Source of the DNA: Mobula hypostoma
Lineage: Eukaryota
Reading direction: 5' to 3'
NCBI RefSeq assembly: GCF_963921235.1
Contig: NC_086097.1
Location: forward strand, 24,244,001 to 24,308,000
DNA: 64,000 nucleotides
Shown here: piece by piece, positions 8,288 to 51,968 of the stretch
Position numbering within the stretch: position 1 is the first letter of the stretch
How the letters are laid out: each line of letters opens with the position of its first letter
Notes under the pieces: generated by a model
What the model saw: the letters and a program-made list of their open reading frames with translations, nothing else
Database searches by the model: none
What the model was told of the DNA's origin: nothing
Translations under genes and position numbers: made by a program

Positions 8288-8505
8288 AGCAACACACACA
8301 AAATGCTGGAGGAACTCGGCAGGACAGGCAGCAGCTATGGGAAAGAGTAAGTAGTCAGCGTTTCGGGACAAGACCCTTCATCCTAGTCCTGATAAAGGGT
8401 CTCAGCCCAGAACATCCACTGTTTGTTCATTTCCATAGATGCTACCTGACTTGCTGAGTTCCTTCAGCATTTTGTATTTTGCTCTGGATTTTCAGCATCT
8501 GCAGA
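8288..8505. mobile_element. Head-to-head Penelope-derived fold-back unit with a decayed hammerhead on each strand
   Basis: Left arm ...gtcagcgtttcgggacaagacccttcatc is the reverse complement of right arm gataaagggtctcagcccagaacatccactg...; arms are about 95 bp. Confidence 0.75.
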
Positions 8506-16589: not shown

Positions 16590-17185
16590 GATAGAAGAGA
16601 ATCCGAATTATAATTGTCCACTTAGATGGCATGAAATTTGTTATGCGGCAGCATTACAGTCCAAAGACATAAAAGTACTATAAATGACCCAACTAAATGA
16701 CTAGTACTGAAAATAAGGAACAACAGTTCATGGATTATTCAGGACCCTGATAGCAAAGGGGAAGAAGCTGTTTCTGAATACTTGAGTCTTCAGGACCCCG
16801 TACCTGATCCCTGATGGTAGTAACGAGAAGAGGGTATGTCCTGTATGCTGAGGGTCCTTATTAATGGATGTCTCTTTCTCGAGCCACCACCCCTTGAAGC
16901 TGTCTGTGATGCTGGAGAGGGCTGTGCCCATGATTAAGCCAAGTCTGCAGCCCTCTGCGTCCTTTCGCGATCCTGGTGCATTTGAGGCTCCATACCAGTC
17001 TGTGATGCAACCGATCAAAATGGTCTCCTTCATACATTTGTAGAAAATTGTAAGAGTCTTTGATGACATACCAAATGTATTCAAGCTCCTGACAAAGCAG
17101 AGCCGCTGGCATGCCTTCTTTGTGAATGCATCAATCTATCGGGCCCAGGATAGATCCTCTGAGATACTCAAGTCCAGAAACATGA
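16590..17185 (-). mobile_element. Rex1/Babar-like LINE 3' fragment (decayed)
   Basis: FGMSSKTLTIFYKCMKETILIGCITDWYG...FSLLPSG...FRNSFFPFAIRVLN is a typical Rex1 C-terminus. Confidence 0.8.
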
Positions 17186-17699: not shown

Positions 17700-17902
17700 C
17701 TGGAACCTGCAGCAACACACATGATGCTGGATGAACGCTGCAGGTCAGGCGGCGTCCCGTCTACCTTTCAGCCCAGATGAAGGGTCTTGACCCGAAATGT
17801 TGACTGTCCATTCGCCTCCTTAGCTGTTGCCTGACCTGCTGAGTTCTTCCAGCAATATTGTGTGTGCGTGTTGCTCTGGATTTCCAGCATCTGCAGAATC
17901 CC
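17700..17902 (+). mobile_element. Penelope-derived fold-back unit with hammerhead motif (U4A variant)
   Basis: Inverted arms around cagccCAGATGAa-GGGT-cttg-ACCC-GAAAtgtt-gactg (17769-17806). Confidence 0.75.
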
Positions 17903-18034
17903 TTGCATAACTGCTTTTGAACCACCTGCTGGGGTGGAGCTTTAGGTTTCTGTACCTCCTGCCCTGCAGTAGCTGTGAGATTCAGTGTCTAATCTTCAAA
18001 GTTAAAAGTCCTATGAACTATTTAATATAATTTT

Positions 18035-19308: not shown

Positions 19309-19981
19309 TAATATGTGAAAAGGATTGAGGAGGTGAATCAAGGTCAGAATCGGAATCAGGCTTAATATCACTATCTGCGTGTGGCGGTCTCTCGCTCACT
19401 GCTCCCGAGGAAAGGTCCTTGTGTTCGAGTGATCTCTCTCTTCCTTGATGCTGTTTGCAGACGGTGCTGGAGCAAGGCTTAATCGATGTGGATTATAGAT
19501 TTCAACTCTAATTCAGAATTATAATATGTTTCGAATTTCTAGTTCGAGTTCTGGTCACTCTCTTTCGTTAGTGCTTTTGGGGTGTTTTTTGAATTGTGGC
19601 GGCCTGCGAATAATGAACATTGAGCTGAACTGTACTGAAATATGCCTTTTGATTTTGTATTCTATATTCCATGTTTTCACTCTTTTTTTTTGTTGCCACT
19701 TGCATGATTTATTTTGAGCGTAGGGTGAAGGGAGAGTTTGATGTTTGATGCTTTTTTTGAAAGAGTTGGTTCCATGGTGCTTCCTTGTTTTGTGACTGTC
19801 TGTGTGAAAGATGAAACTCAGGGGTGAATGCTGCATATACACATGGATAATAAATGCACTGAGTCTTAAATATGTTGTGAAATTTGTTGTTTTGCAGCAG
19901 CCATACAGTTGAATACATAAACACAATTTAAACTACAATGATGTATAGAAGAATTGCAAAAATAGTGAGGTAGTGTTTATT

Positions 19982-20150
19982 GCAACACACATAAAAGTTG
20001 CTGGTGAATGCAGCAGGTCAGGCAGCATCTTACTAGCTCTTCTTTCAGTTAGTCCTGACGAAGGGTCTCGGCCTGAAACATTGACTGTACCTCTTCCTGG
20101 AGATGCTGCCTGACCTGCTGCGTTCACCAGCAACTTTGATGTGTGTTGCT
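19982..20150 (+). mobile_element. 169-bp fold-back Penelope-derived element enclosing a hammerhead motif, with 16-bp TSD
   Basis: 49-bp inverted arms 19982-20030 and 20101-20149 (47/49 match); flanking TGAGGT(A/G)GTGTTTATT at 19966-19981 and 20151-20166. Confidence 0.9.
20051..20086 (+). ncRNA. Minimal type I hammerhead ribozyme motif
   Basis: AGTC-CTGACGA-A-GGGT(ctcg)GCCT-GAAA-CA-TT-GACT: helix I AGTC/GACT, intact CUGANGA and GAAA boxes, helix II, vestigial helix III. Activity untested. Confidence 0.75.
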
Positions 20151-21789
20151 TGAGGTGGTGTTTATTGGTTAGTTCATTGTCTGTTCAGAAATTCAATGGT
20201 GGAGGGTGAAAGCTGTTCCTAAAATGTTGAGTGTGTGTTTTCAGGCTCCTGCTGCATCTCCTTCCTGATGGTAGTATTAAACAAAGAGCATATCCTGGGT
20301 GATGAGGATCCTTACGGAAGGATAATGCAAGTTTTTGTCATTAACTATACAGAAATATTCTCGTCTTCATTTTTTCCTTTATTTTTGCACATTTGGGACT
20401 TCATTCTATTGTTATTTTCTTGCCTGCTTAATCTCCAGTAAATAGCAATTCTTTACTCTGCCTACTGGGTAGCTGGTTCCAAGTGGTATCATTGCAAACA
20501 CTTGAAGAAGATGGTCTTAGCATAAGCTCTGTTAGAATTCCGATAGCAACAGATTCGACAGCTATATTTGAAAAATGATATCATCTAACGCCTGGAAGCA
20601 GACATCAGTGGGAGGGAATCTTTCAACCCATCTGTCTGGGCTGAGTTCCAACTTTCAATGGTGAAGGGACACTGTGTTCCTCATTATTCCACCCAGTGCC
20701 TTTTCTGTTGGTTTTTAAATAGATACTTGCTCGAGGTATCCTGTCATTTCACAATACTATGGATGGTCTATCCTATTCAATTCACCACCAGCCCCCATCT
20801 GACCCTCCACTCCAAAGGCATCCTTCACATCCTGGAGGTCACTGCTTGAAAGGGGGTTCCAAGCAGATTAATTAATAAAAATTGGATAAGTACTCAAAGG
20901 GAGGGAAAATTAGCAGTAGGGCAAAAGAGCAGGAATTAGACCAACTCTCTCAAAGAGCTGTGACTGTACTGTTCATTCCAGTGATCCTATGATCAGGATC
21001 TGGCCCTGACACCCTGTCCCTTTAGGACAGGGATGATGAGGAATTTCTTCAGCTAGAGGGCAGTGAATATGTCAGATTCATTGCCACAGATGGCTGTGGA
21101 GGCCAACTCATTTGAGGCAGAGATTTAATAATTCTTGATTGGTAAGGGGATCAAGACATTTTCCAAGGTATGAAAATTGGGTTGAAAAAATATCAGCCAC
21201 GACCAAATGGCAGAGCAGATTCGATAGGCAGAATTTCCTAATTCTACTCTTATATCTTTTGGCCTTATGATCTAAATACGCACCCTGTATCCCTTCTGTC
21301 AAATATTTACTATGTACTTTATTGCCAACTTTATCCTGAGTAATAGCCAAGCTTATTTATACACAAAGAGTGGTGGATGCATGGAATGTGCTGTCAGGGG
21401 TGGTGGTAGGGGCAGATACTTTAGGGACTTTTTAAAGACTCTTAGATAGGCACAGAGATGAAAGAAAAGTGGAAGACTATGTGGCAGGGAAGGGGTCAAT
21501 TGATCATAGAGTGGGTTAAGAGGGTGGGTAATATCATAGGTGAAGGGCCTGTACTGTGCTAGGGTCCATGTTAACCATGTCTATGTACTTTGTTACTTTG
21601 TTATGCCGACGTAGTGGAGATTAATGCAGAGTAACAGAGATGCTTGCTTCACTGCAGCCCAGAACATCCCAAAATCTTCCTGAAAAATCTGAGGAATTAT
21701 GTAACTCAGAAAGTGATTGAAATCTGGAACATAGTTAAGAAATATGTATTTCTTATGACTGAGTCACCGAGAGATAAAGAGTATGAGTT

Positions 21790-22442
21790 GGGGGTGAGGA
21801 AGGCAAATGCGAAGATAGCATTCATTTTGAGAGAACTAGAATACAAAAGCAGGGTGTAATGCTGAAGCTTTATAAAGCACTGGTGAGGCCTCACTTGGAG
21901 TATTGTGAGCAGTTTTGGGCACCTTATCGAAGAAAGGATGTGTTGACATTGGAGAGGGTTCAAAAGAGGTTCACAAAAATGATTCTGGGATTCAAAGGCT
22001 TGTCAGATGCGGAGCGTTTGATGGCTCTACTCACTGGAATTCAGAAGAACGAGAGATGACCTCGTTGAAACTTATCGAATGTTGAAAGGCCTCGACAGAT
22101 TGGATGTGGAGAGGATGTTTCCTATGGTGGTAGAGTCTAAGACCAGAGGATGCGGTCTCAGGATAGAGGGACATTCTTTTAGAACACTGATGAGGAGGAG
22201 TGTTTTTAACAATCGAGTAATGAAAATGTGGAATTTGTTCCACAGGTGACTGTGGAGGCCAAATGATTGGATATGTTTAAGGGAAGCTTGATAGATTCTT
22301 GATTATTCATGGCATGAAGAGATACGAGGAGAAGGCAGGAGATTGGAGCCGAAAGGGAAAAAGGATCAGCCATGATGAAATGGCAGAATAGACTTGATGG
22401 GCCAAATGGTCTAATTCTGCTCCTATATCTTATGGTCTTATG
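21790..22442 (+). mobile_element. CR1 LINE 3' fragment
   Basis: MLKLYKALVRPHLEYCEQFWAPYRRKDVLTLERVQKRFTKMI; tail tcttatggtcttatg. Confidence 0.9.
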
Positions 22443-51332: not shown

Positions 51333-51968
51333 AGAATCTTTTATGTTAACTTTGCTTTGCTGTGGTGAGTCTGGAAAGAGTGAGGTTATAGAGTCATAGA
51401 GTACTACAGCACAGAATCATCTCAACCGAGTCAACCTGGTCTTCTGCCTAGTCCTATTTAGCTGCATCTGGAATACAACCCTCCATACCCCATCTTCCAT
51501 CCACCTATTCAAATTTTTCATAAATGTTGCAATTAAACTTTCATCTACCATTTCCACTGGTTCCACACTCCCACCACCCTCTGAGTGAAGAGGTCCCTCC
51601 TCTGATTCCCCTTAAATATTTCACCTTTCACCCAAAACCTATGAACACTAATTCTAGTCTCACCCCAACTTCAGTGGAAAAGGCCTGCTTGCATTCACCC
51701 TACCTCTTCCCCTCATAATTTTGTATACCTCTATAAAATCTCCCGTCTTTCTCTTACATTCCAGGGGGAAGAAAAGGACCTTACCTGTTCAAACATGAAA
51801 TGCTGGAGGAACTCAGCAGGTAAAGCAGCATCTATCTAGAGGAATAAAGAGTCGACATTTTTGCCCAAGACCCTTCATCAGGAGGTCTCAGCCTGAAAGG
51901 TCAACACTTTATTCCTTTTCATAGACACTGCATGACCTGCTAAGTTCCTCCAGCATTTTGTGTGTGCT

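What the first reader, a model, noticed from the sequence alone, without database searches (positions are those of the whole stretch)
19966..20166. 169-bp non-coding mobile hairpin carrying a hammerhead ribozyme motif
Seen: 49-bp inverted arms (47/49) enclose AGTC-CTGACGA-A-GGGT(ctcg)GCCT-GAAA-CATT-GACT. The unit is flanked by a 16-bp direct repeat (one mismatch) and interrupts a Rex1-type 3' UTR, so it arrived as one insertion. Established: Penelope-like elements (PLEs) carry minimal type I hammerheads in their pseudo-LTRs and often show inverted terminal segments. Inference: this looks like a MITE but is a PLE-mobilised, retrozyme-like element. I cannot tell whether it propagates as its own family or each copy is an independent truncation/inversion of a long PLE.
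Basis: partly seen in the sequence, partly recalled or inferred. Interest (0 to 1): 0.85.

Follow-up and report, generated by a model that had tools for sequence, protein, structure and literature searches.

The report
Truncated, inverted Penelope retrotransposon insertion
The 169-bp hairpin is an ordinary dead-on-arrival insertion of a very abundant Penelope-like retrotransposon, two short copies of its tail laid head to head, and its hammerhead ribozyme motif has decayed.

Summary
Arms of 49 nt (47/49 complementary) enclose a hammerhead-like motif, and a 17-nt direct repeat with one mismatch flanks the unit. Two paralogous copies of the interrupted host repeat carry that 17-mer once, so the unit arrived as one insertion.

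It is not a mobile hairpin family. Positions 20027-20150 are the last 124 nt of the 3' UTR of a Penelope-like element (PLE). Longer copies carry RT and GIY-YIG ORF fragments upstream, variable 5' truncation and an optional 36-nt tail. The left arm is an inverted second copy of the last 49 nt.

Head-to-head composites are routine in this family: 12 of 29 evaluable insertions, with differing junctions and their own TSDs. This architecture is already published for PLEs (PMC8557442). Only 4 copies genome-wide share this junction, against 50,928 exact hammerhead motifs. Those 4 share no derived substitutions.

The family motif fits the published minimal PLE hammerhead. The window copy fails it: 16.2 is A, which breaks the helix III palindrome, and 11.1 is U. 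No Rfam hammerhead model matches. One head-to-tail joint of the short form was found. Verdict: ordinary, known kind, low interest.

The parts
19966..19982 (.). Left copy of the target-site duplication (TGAGGTAGTGTTTATTG)
   Evidence: 17 nt, 1 mismatch to 20151-20167. Paralogous empty sites L042 and L053 hold one copy. Found again by the TSD script.
19982..20030 (-). Short arm: an inverted copy of the last 49 nt of the PLE 3' UTR (tail-less end ...GTGTGTTGC), so a PLE fragment on the minus strand
   Evidence: element positions 1-49 match the reverse complement of 121-169 in every canonical copy. Two mismatches to the other arm, one of them a CpG transition.
20027..20030 (.). ATCT microhomology at the internal junction, shared by the end of the inverted arm and the start of the sense fragment
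   Evidence: In canonical copies ...TTTCAAAT-ATCT-TACTAGC precedes this point, and the arm ends ...GGCAGC-ATCT. Loose ends before 20028 show the canonical upstream sequence in most family members.
20027..20150 (+). Sense fragment: the last 124 nt of the PLE 3' UTR, 5'-truncated and without the 36-nt tail; 95-97% identical to ordinary copies
   Evidence: mean 95.5% to 19 canonical copies. The match to the family may run to 20153 (TGA shared by tail and TSD).
20051..20086 (+). Decayed minimal (PLE-type) hammerhead motif: helix I AGTC/GACT, CTGACGA box, bulged A, helix II GGGT(CTCG)GCCT, GAAA, then CATT where siblings have CGTC or CGTT. The predicted cleavage site is after 20082
   Evidence: Sequence. 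The descriptor fails here and passes in 30 sibling motifs. Family majority is G at 20080 and C at 20082 (table 3). No Rfam hammerhead hit.
20101..20149 (+). Right arm of the hairpin: the 3'-terminal 49 nt of the sense fragment
20151..20167 (.). Right copy of the target-site duplication (TGAGGTGGTGTTTATTG)
19872..20251 (.). Host dispersed repeat interrupted by the insertion (19872-19965 and 20168-20251 are its two halves); family not identified
   Evidence: about 80% identity to L042 and L053 across the empty site.

Best explanation
The hairpin is a single dead-on-arrival insertion of a very abundant Penelope-like retrotransposon (PLE). It consists of two severely 5'-truncated copies of the element's 3' end laid head to head: 124 nt in sense on the + strand and 49 nt inverted.

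Shown:
- The parent is an RT + GIY-YIG element.
- Its copies are variably 5'-truncated.
- Its 3' end comes with or without a 36-nt tail.
- The composite sits between a 17-nt target-site duplication that is single-copy at paralogous empty sites.
- Such head-to-head composites, each with its own junction and its own TSD, make up about 40% of sampled insertions of this family.

Inferred mechanism:
- The PLE endonuclease nicked both target strands 17 nt apart.
- Each 3'-OH primed reverse transcription at the element's internal start site (the ...GTGTGTTGC end).
- The two short antisense cDNAs were joined at their 3' ends through a 4-nt ATCT/AGAT microhomology and filled in.
- This is a PLE version of twin priming.

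The unit has no function of its own. Its hammerhead motif is the passenger copy from the PLE 3' UTR and has since lost the helix III palindrome, probably through CpG deamination. The hairpin shape is a by-product of insertion, not a transposition signal.
For: Parent identity:
- Canonical copies continue upstream of position 20027's equivalent with conserved sequence, and their 5' ends vary from about 100 nt to more than 1.4 kb.
- In long copies the same strand carries an RT fragment: the letters YIDD stand in the translation of L019:2738-3124:- (that they mark the RT motif is my recollection), and RVT_1 scores E 2.2e-6, 28 bits.
- This is followed by GIY-YIG (E 2.1e-4, 21.9-22 bits).
- Named relatives of the EN part also score GIY-YIG.
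- An optional 36-nt extension follows ...GTTGCT in many copies. It matches the 30-40-bp PLE 'tail' (PMC8557442 passages; PMC11167929 main text).

Single insertion:
- 17-nt TSD.
- Empty-site paralogs L042 and L053.

Composites are routine:
- Thirty loci were picked only by the terminal 101 nt. Of the 29 whose 5' end lies inside the locus, 12 have an abutting inverted copy (gap of 11 nt or less). The count is 14-15 if one complex case and two short arms seen by eye are added.
- A TSD of 12-18 nt flanks the whole composite in 10 of 13 examined. That set of 13 is the 12 composites above less L071, whose left end runs off the locus, plus the complex case L078 and a second hairpin in L063. L057 was not evaluable. 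L081 and L085 gave only weak 7-8-nt matches. The L074 repeat overlaps the element's own end and is doubtful.
- A TSD of 9-19 nt flanks 9 of the 10 hairpins found with the window's unit.
- Junction positions differ among them.
- In the first 100 of 50,928 genome-wide hammerhead-motif matches, 8 pairs lie within 1 kb. All 8 are head-to-head (-,+) and none is (+,-).
- The window itself holds three more such composites.

Not its own family:
- The junction 24-mer with up to 2 mismatches occurs 4 times in 3.48 Gb, control 0.
- The four are 91.4% alike among themselves but 92-95.5% alike to ordinary copies.
- No column has 3 or more of the four sharing a state that 3 or fewer of the 19 canonical copies hold.

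Literature:
- A purified PLE protein cleaves and extends both target strands and starts reverse transcription at two internal sites that delimit the tail (PMC11167929).
Against: - The Pfam scores for RT (28 vs cut-off 29.6) and GIY-YIG (about 22 vs 22.6) lie just below the curated thresholds, because the ORFs examined are broken fragments. No intact full-length copy was examined.
- The two-strand priming and the microhomology joining are inferred from end points only.
- The window copy lacks the tail on both ends. In the other composites one arm normally has it, so this copy is not the typical product.
- Four copies do share exactly this junction, and a fifth (L007) has the same end points without the overlap. 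This could mean common descent rather than recurrence.
- A star-like pattern of divergence does not exclude a master whose sequence equalled the family's central sequence.
- The loci sampled are the top-scoring 30-40 of 752-815 first-look candidates, not a random draw. The first set is biased towards copies that resemble the query.
Confidence: 0.8

Rival explanations
1. Same origin (a PLE by-product), but the inversion arose by snap-back. A single first-strand cDNA folded back on itself, or the RT switched template onto the nascent cDNA, rather than two cDNAs being primed independently from the two target strands.
For: Two other composites in the window are nearly symmetrical palindromes with 8-11-nt loops: arms of 85 nt at 8298-8475 and 83 nt at 51790-51966. 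Self-priming would give exactly that. L064 has both inner ends at the same reference position.
Against: The arms are unequal here (49 vs 124 nt) and in most composites. Copying a cDNA back to its 5' end should reproduce that end. Instead one arm carries the 36-nt tail while the partner ends at the tail-less site (ref 2579-2595) in 9 of 13 composites. That pattern fits two independent initiations at the two known start sites (PMC11167929).
Confidence: 0.12
2. The hairpin is a small non-autonomous family (a 'retro-MITE' or retrozyme-like element). On this view a master with this exact junction is transcribed and copied in trans by PLE proteins.
For: Four copies with different flanks and different TSDs share the junction. 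Either strand's transcript of the hairpin would end in a PLE 3' end, so in principle it could be recognised by the PLE RT (inference). Non-LTR retrozymes are reported to be PLE-derived (bioRxiv 10.64898/2026.07.22.740005; abstract and first part of Results read).
Against: There are only 4 such copies against 50,928 exact family hammerhead motifs. The four share no derived substitution and are less alike to each other than to ordinary copies. They differ at sites that are polymorphic among ordinary copies. L007 has the same end points without the overlap, which suggests recurrent break points. The unit is not in tandem, and only one head-to-tail tail-to-hammerhead joint exists genome-wide under an exact pattern. 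Three of the four have the tail and the window copy has none.
Confidence: 0.06
3. It is a true MITE moved by a DNA transposase, or a hairpin RNA gene (miRNA-like precursor).
For: Terminal inverted repeats and a flanking direct repeat are present. There is a weak hairpin-only match to mir-1791: 29.2 bits against a gathering score of 75.
Against: The 'TIRs' are the 3' end of a retrotransposon. TSD length varies from 9 to 19 nt among sibling hairpins, unlike the fixed short TSD of a DNA transposon superfamily (established knowledge). Internal junctions vary. The Rfam match is far below threshold and involves only the stem.
Confidence: 0.02

Closest known systems
Complex tandem/inverted insertions of Penelope-like elements (Craig et al. 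2021, PMC8557442, passages read; earlier reviews by Evgen'ev & Arkhipova 2005 and Arkhipova 2006 are cited there and were not read)
   Same: High 5' truncation. An inverted 5'-truncated copy abuts the 5' end and forms inverted repeats. A 30-40-bp tail often sits at one end only. A hammerhead motif lies in the pLTR/3' region. The coding capacity is RT + GIY-YIG. All of these are seen in this family.
   Different: This copy is an extreme miniature, 124 + 49 nt, with no coding part, so the whole insertion collapses to a MITE-like hairpin. It lacks the tail at both ends.
Minimal hammerhead ribozymes of metazoan PLEs (Cervera & de la Pena 2014, PMC4209133, parts 1-2 of the text read)
   Same: [quoted passage not shown] All are met by sibling copies.
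   Different: In the window copy 16.2 is A, so 15.2-16.2 is no longer complementary. Position 11.1 is U. The family's commonest variant also has U at 11.1. No cleavage data exist for this family.
L1 5' inversions by twin priming (Ostertag & Kazazian 2001, recalled; described in PMC12016303, passages read)
   Same: Two cDNAs of opposite orientation are primed from the two target strands and joined inside one TSD-flanked insertion. The two cDNAs can share sequence.
   Different: In L1 the inverted cDNA is primed at an arbitrary internal site. Here both outer ends coincide with the element's own specific RT start sites, which is why the product has terminal inverted repeats.
Non-LTR retrozymes (Cervera & de la Pena 2020, PMC7229834, search listing only; Li et al. 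2026 preprint, abstract and first part of Results)
   Same: Short, non-coding, carry a type I hammerhead, and are related to PLE terminal regions.
   Different: Retrozymes are head-to-tail tandem repeats thought to give circular RNAs. This unit is a single head-to-head inverted pair with one decayed hammerhead. The family shows 1 short head-to-tail joint genome-wide under an exact pattern.
MITEs
   Same: About 170 bp, non-coding, terminal inverted repeats, flanking direct repeat.
   Different: The arms are retrotransposon 3' ends. TSD length and internal junction vary between siblings, and there is no family of uniform copies.

Membership tests
Penelope-like element (derived fragment) | Parent element encodes RT followed by a C-terminal GIY-YIG endonuclease on one strand | tested here: met
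   L036:1363-1983:- scores RVT_1 at E 2.2e-6, 28 bits (cut-off 29.6). L019:1883-2335:- and L020:1886-2203:- score GIY-YIG at E 2.1e-4, about 22 bits (cut-off 22.6). The letters YIDD stand in the translation of L019:2738-3124:-. All are collinear and lie upstream of the hammerhead-bearing tail. The scores fall just under Pfam's cut-offs because the ORFs are fragments.
Penelope-like element (derived fragment) | Variable 5' truncation of copies that share a common 3' end | tested here: met
   5' ends are spread from reference position <=1039 to 2523 among 30 loci.
Penelope-like element (derived fragment) | Optional 30-40-bp tail at the 3' end, often at one end only of a composite | tested here: met
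   A 36-nt extension is present or absent after ...GTTGCT. It sits on one arm only in the composites. The window copy itself has none.
Penelope-like element (derived fragment) | Inverted 5'-truncated copy abutting the 5' end | tested here: met
   True of the window unit itself. Seen in 12 of 29 evaluable family insertions. In one search, 8 of 8 close motif pairs are head-to-head.
Penelope-like element (derived fragment) | Target-site duplication of variable length from staggered nicks | tested here: met
   17 nt here, single-copy at the empty sites. Sibling composites show 9-19 nt.
Hammerhead ribozyme (minimal PLE type) | Core boxes CUGANGA and GAA(A), with H at position 17 | tested here: met
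   CTGACGA at 20055-61, GAAA at 20075-78, T at 20082.
Hammerhead ribozyme (minimal PLE type) | Helix II closed by G10.1-C11.1, with an unpaired nucleotide between 9 and 10.1 | tested here: not met
   The bulged A is present (20062). Position 11.1 is T (20074), which gives G.U. The strict descriptor fails. T is also the commoner state in the family: C accounts for about 27% of depth at 20074, and 10 of 30 sibling motifs pass the strict test.
Hammerhead ribozyme (minimal PLE type) | Self-complementary 15.1-16.1 tetramer (A-C-G-U), allowing helix III to form in a dimer | tested here: not met
   The window has ACAT (20078-20081), so even the relaxed descriptor fails. Siblings have ACGT (30 motifs pass). 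G is the family majority at 20080.
Hammerhead ribozyme (minimal PLE type) | Match to a curated hammerhead covariance model | tested here: not met
   No Rfam hammerhead family matches at gathering score in the window, at E<=10 in 19850-20300, or in 8 loci with intact sibling motifs. Rfam models expect a helix III hairpin, which minimal PLE motifs lack (my reading).
Hammerhead ribozyme (minimal PLE type) | Self-cleavage | not testable with these tools
   MFE folds of monomer and homodimer did not return the active fold for the window copy or for an intact sibling. This is uninformative.
Non-LTR retrozyme | Head-to-tail tandem repeats of a short hammerhead-bearing unit | tested here: not met
   The unit is a single inverted pair. 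One tail-to-hammerhead joint exists in 3.48 Gb under an exact pattern.
Non-LTR retrozyme | Circular RNA product | not testable with these tools
   No run on record as RNA holds the stretch. Only contigs were available.
MITE | Uniform family with constant ends and constant TSD length set by a DNA transposase | tested here: not met
   Four copies share the junction. Junctions and TSD lengths vary among the hairpins.

The most novel reading that the evidence does not exclude
The four junction-sharing hairpins (window, L002, L003, L004) descend from one hairpin master. Either strand of such a by-product is transcribed into an RNA that ends in a PLE reverse-transcription start site. PLE proteins could therefore re-mobilise their own inverted mini-insertions, which would make them nascent 'retro-MITEs'. 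Their 49-bp stems could also feed small-RNA silencing of the parent family.
Probability: 0.06. Interest if true: 0.55.

Novelty: already known. Interest (0 to 1): 0.15.

Why it matters
For this locus it matters little. It is one decayed copy among tens of thousands, in a repeat-rich stretch.

It has some value as an annotation lesson. In PLE-rich vertebrate genomes, very short head-to-head PLE tails mimic MITEs or miRNA-like hairpins, as the sub-threshold Rfam mir-1791 match shows. They should be masked as PLE fragments.

The family-level side observations are genomic footprints that agree with the in vitro finding that a PLE protein primes on both target strands from two internal start sites. 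These are that one arm carries the tail, that this arm is usually the shorter one, and that the partner ends at the tail-less start site. A proper census would be needed to make them more than a hint.

Tried and rejected
- Rfam at gathering score on the window, and at E<=10 on 19850-20300 and on 8 sibling loci: no hammerhead family. The only hit on the unit is a stem-only match to mir-1791, 29.2 bits against a gathering score of 75, rejected as a hairpin artefact.
- My own min-hammerhead descriptor on the window, both strands: 0 hits strict or relaxed, and 0 in 100 first-order Markov shuffles. The focal copy and the roughly 14 older PLE-tail fragments in the window are therefore all degenerate by that test.
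- MFE and cofold of the hammerhead region for the window copy and an intact sibling: neither returns the active fold. Uninformative.
- PDB sequence search with a 343-aa upstream ORF fragment: nothing. Pfam on several other ORF fragments: nothing.
- Host repeat identity ('Rex1-type'): the shared unit is only about 280 bp. An APE-like ORF lies about 1 kb away in L042 (the APE reading is from memory and was not run against Pfam) but is not shown to belong to the same element. The name was left undecided.
- Sequencing runs: no RNA holder listed.
- Contigs of 4 coded runs laid on 19700-20450 were swamped by the repeat family. No record spans the insertion. One contig of a second organism label runs 20127-20449, but only 24 nt of it lie on the insertion side, so it does not count as bridging. 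I therefore have no orthologous empty or filled site.
- Earlier findings of the scan: none for this genome.
- The supplementary figures of PMC4209133 (descriptor, consensus families) were not opened. They might show a closer match to this family's motif.
- MITE and miRNA-precursor readings were considered and rejected (see the rival explanations).
Full report
**1. Observation**

- One search finds inverted arms 19982-20030 and 20101-20149 (49 nt, 96% complementary, 70 nt apart).
- It also finds a direct repeat 19966-19982 / 20151-20167, which is 17 nt with one mismatch.
- The quoted motif lies at 20051-20086.
- As RNA the 169 nt fold to -108.1 kcal/mol, against -48.7 +/- 4 for 200 shuffles (z = -14.9).
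- The window has 43.6% G+C and a CpG observed/expected ratio of 0.31. CpG decay must therefore be allowed for when reading any motif here.

**2. The direct repeat is a real target-site duplication**

The left flank is itself repetitive (1108 first-look candidates). Two paralogs, L042 and L053, align to the window's left flank up to 19980. They then continue, through one copy of the 17-mer, straight into the window's right flank. I could not verify that the host repeat is 'Rex1-type': the shared unit is only about 280 bp.

**3. What the unit is made of**

The window's genome (3.48 Gb, 200 contigs) was searched with the 169 nt. This gave 752 first-look candidates, of which 40 were scored.
- Most hits cover only positions 46-169, at 94-97% identity. 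About ten cover the whole hairpin.
- Position 46 is not an element boundary. In ordinary copies conserved sequence continues upstream. In many copies a conserved 36-nt extension follows ...GTTGCT downstream.
- Upstream conservation ends at different points in different copies, from about 100 nt to more than 1.4 kb.

In the longest copies the same strand carries:
- an RT fragment: the letters YIDD stand in the translation of L019:2738-3124:- (that they mark the RT motif is my recollection), and RVT_1 scores E 2.2e-6, 28 bits;
- then a GIY-YIG domain (E 2.1e-4).

Both scores lie just under Pfam's cut-offs because the ORFs are broken fragments. The closest named proteins come from batoid fishes, and two of the three that were scanned also score GIY-YIG (20.1-20.9 bits, under the 22.6 cut-off).

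RT followed by GIY-YIG, 5' truncation and an optional 30-40-bp tail are the published signature of Penelope-like elements (PMC8557442, passages; PMC11167929, main text). So 20027-20150 is the last 124 nt of a PLE 3' UTR in sense, without the tail. And 19982-20030 is an inverted copy of its last 49 nt. The two meet at an ATCT that both share (20027-20030).

**4. Is the hairpin a family?**

A genome-wide pattern search with the 24-mer across the junction, allowing 2 mismatches, finds 4 places: the window, L002, L003 and L004. The reversed control finds 0. A 33-nt degenerate pattern of the family's hammerhead finds 50,928 exact matches, control 0.
- The four have different flanks and their own TSDs.
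- Over the 124 nt they are 91.4% alike among themselves, but 92-95.5% alike to 19 ordinary copies.
- In no column do 3 or more of the four share a state that 3 or fewer of the 19 ordinary copies hold.
- They differ at sites that are polymorphic among ordinary copies.

The other hairpins recovered with the query (L005, L006, L008, L012, L024, L025) have other junctions. L007 has the same end points but no overlap.

To remove query bias I searched with only the terminal 101 nt of an ordinary copy and examined the 30 best loci.
- Of the 29 whose 5' end lies inside the locus, 12 have an inverted copy abutting the 5' end. The count is 14-15 with one complex case and two short arms seen by eye.
- The junctions lie all over the last 1.9 kb.
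- A TSD of 12-18 nt flanks the whole composite in 10 of 13 examined. That set is the 12 composites less L071, whose left end runs off the locus, plus the complex case L078 and a second hairpin in L063. L057 was not evaluable. L081 and L085 gave only weak matches. The L074 repeat overlaps the element's own end and is doubtful.
- A TSD of 9-19 nt flanks 9 of the 10 hairpins in the first set.
- Among the first 100 hammerhead-motif matches listed, 8 pairs lie within 1 kb. All 8 are in head-to-head order.
- The window itself contains three more composites from older relatives, near 17700-17905, 8288-8500 and 51790-51966.

These are independent truncation/inversion products, not a propagating hairpin.

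**5. Mechanism**

Craig et al. state that PLE insertions often carry an inverted 5'-truncated copy at the 5' end, and a tail at one end only. Frangieh et al. show that a purified PLE protein cleaves and extends both target strands. They also show that it starts reverse transcription at two internal sites that delimit the tail. The footprints here fit that.
- Both outer ends of the composites coincide with one of the two 3' ends.
- In the unbiased set the partner of a tailed copy ends at the tail-less site (ref 2579-2595) in 9 of 13.
- The arms are usually unequal, which argues against simple snap-back of one cDNA.

I therefore favour a PLE form of twin priming. Twin priming itself is described for L1 in PMC12016303 (passages). 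Nicks 17 nt apart each primed a short cDNA, and the two 3' ends were joined at the ATCT/AGAT microhomology. These steps are inferred, not shown. The window copy is atypical in lacking the tail on both arms.

**6. The hammerhead**

The family motif is AGTC-CTGACGA-A-GGGT(CTCG)GCC[C/T]-GAAA-CGT[C/T]-GACT. It has the features Cervera & de la Pena list for metazoan PLE minimal hammerheads:
- an unpaired base after position 9;
- no helix III hairpin, but a self-complementary ACGU;
- a short helix I;
- a location in the PLE terminal region.

My descriptor finds 30 such motifs in 184 kb of sibling loci, 10 of them with G10.1-C11.1. It finds none in the window and none in shuffles.

The window copy has A at 20080 and T at 20082, where the family majority is G and C (table 3). 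It has T at 20074, which is the commoner state in the family. The G-to-A change destroys the ACGU palindrome. It sits in a CpG and is the kind of change expected from deamination. No Rfam hammerhead model matches this copy or intact siblings. The published minimal motifs cleave poorly in vitro, and only as dimers or with protein. Cleavage after 20082 is therefore unlikely for this copy, and I could not test it.

**7. Retrozyme-likeness**

Non-LTR retrozymes are head-to-tail tandem arrays. This unit is a single head-to-head pair. An exact pattern for a short tail-to-hammerhead joint occurs once in the genome. No run on record as RNA held the stretch, and the contigs laid were swamped by the family.

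**8. Verdict**

The PLE and hammerhead inference is right in origin. The element is an ordinary, already described kind of PLE insertion by-product with a decayed ribozyme motif. Interest is low.

Noticed in passing
G000 genome-wide; window 20055-20086 is the local, decayed example: A 33-nt degenerate pattern of this PLE family's minimal hammerhead has 50,928 exact matches in 3.48 Gb (control 0). The dominant variant has T at position 11.1, giving G.U instead of the conserved G10.1-C11.1. Many tails are 100% identical over 92-95 nt, which suggests very recent activity.
   Followed up: partly
Loci L057-L086 and L002-L025: In head-to-head composites only one arm carries the 36-nt tail. That arm is the shorter one in 11 of 13 composites in the unbiased set, and in 8 of 10 in the set found with the window hairpin. 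The partner's outer end sits at the tail-less start site in 9 of 13. This may be an in vivo footprint of ordered two-strand priming.
   Followed up: partly
Loci L062, L063, L064, L066, L072, L076, L081, L086; equivalent to window 20051-20062: The 5' ends of short tailed copies pile up within 12 nt at the 5' edge of the hammerhead (8 of 30 loci). They do not pile up at the predicted cleavage site, which lies 20-30 nt further on. This could mark an RNA 5' end or an RT stop. The ends were taken from BLAST, so they are approximate.
   Followed up: partly
window 17700-17905, 8288-8500, 51790-51966: Three further head-to-head PLE-tail composites from older, 70-77%-diverged relatives. The last two are near-symmetrical, with 85-nt and 83-nt arms and 8-11-nt loops. 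About ten more single PLE-tail fragments lie elsewhere in the window (for example 11735, 13421, 24257, 31429, 36840, 44755, 49184).
   Followed up: partly
window 16728-17135 (-) and 21787-22059 (+): ORF fragments that look like C-terminal parts of LINE reverse transcriptases. The resemblance is from memory and they were not run against Pfam. The neighbourhood of the finding is a patchwork of retrotransposon debris.
   Followed up: no
window 20127-20449; coded run X5, record 23: A contig from a second organism label covers the end of the right arm, the TSD and the unique right flank, with 7 differences in 323 nt. This hints that the insertion is shared, but only 24 nt lie on the insertion side, which is below the 31-nt rule for a bridging record.
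   Followed up: partly
L062 about 1458-1470 and L086 about 1454-1476: Very short inverted pieces (about 12 and 23 nt) sit at the 5' ends of otherwise simple truncated copies, and BLAST missed them. The true share of insertions with some inverted 5' piece is therefore higher than the 12 of 29 counted.
   Followed up: no
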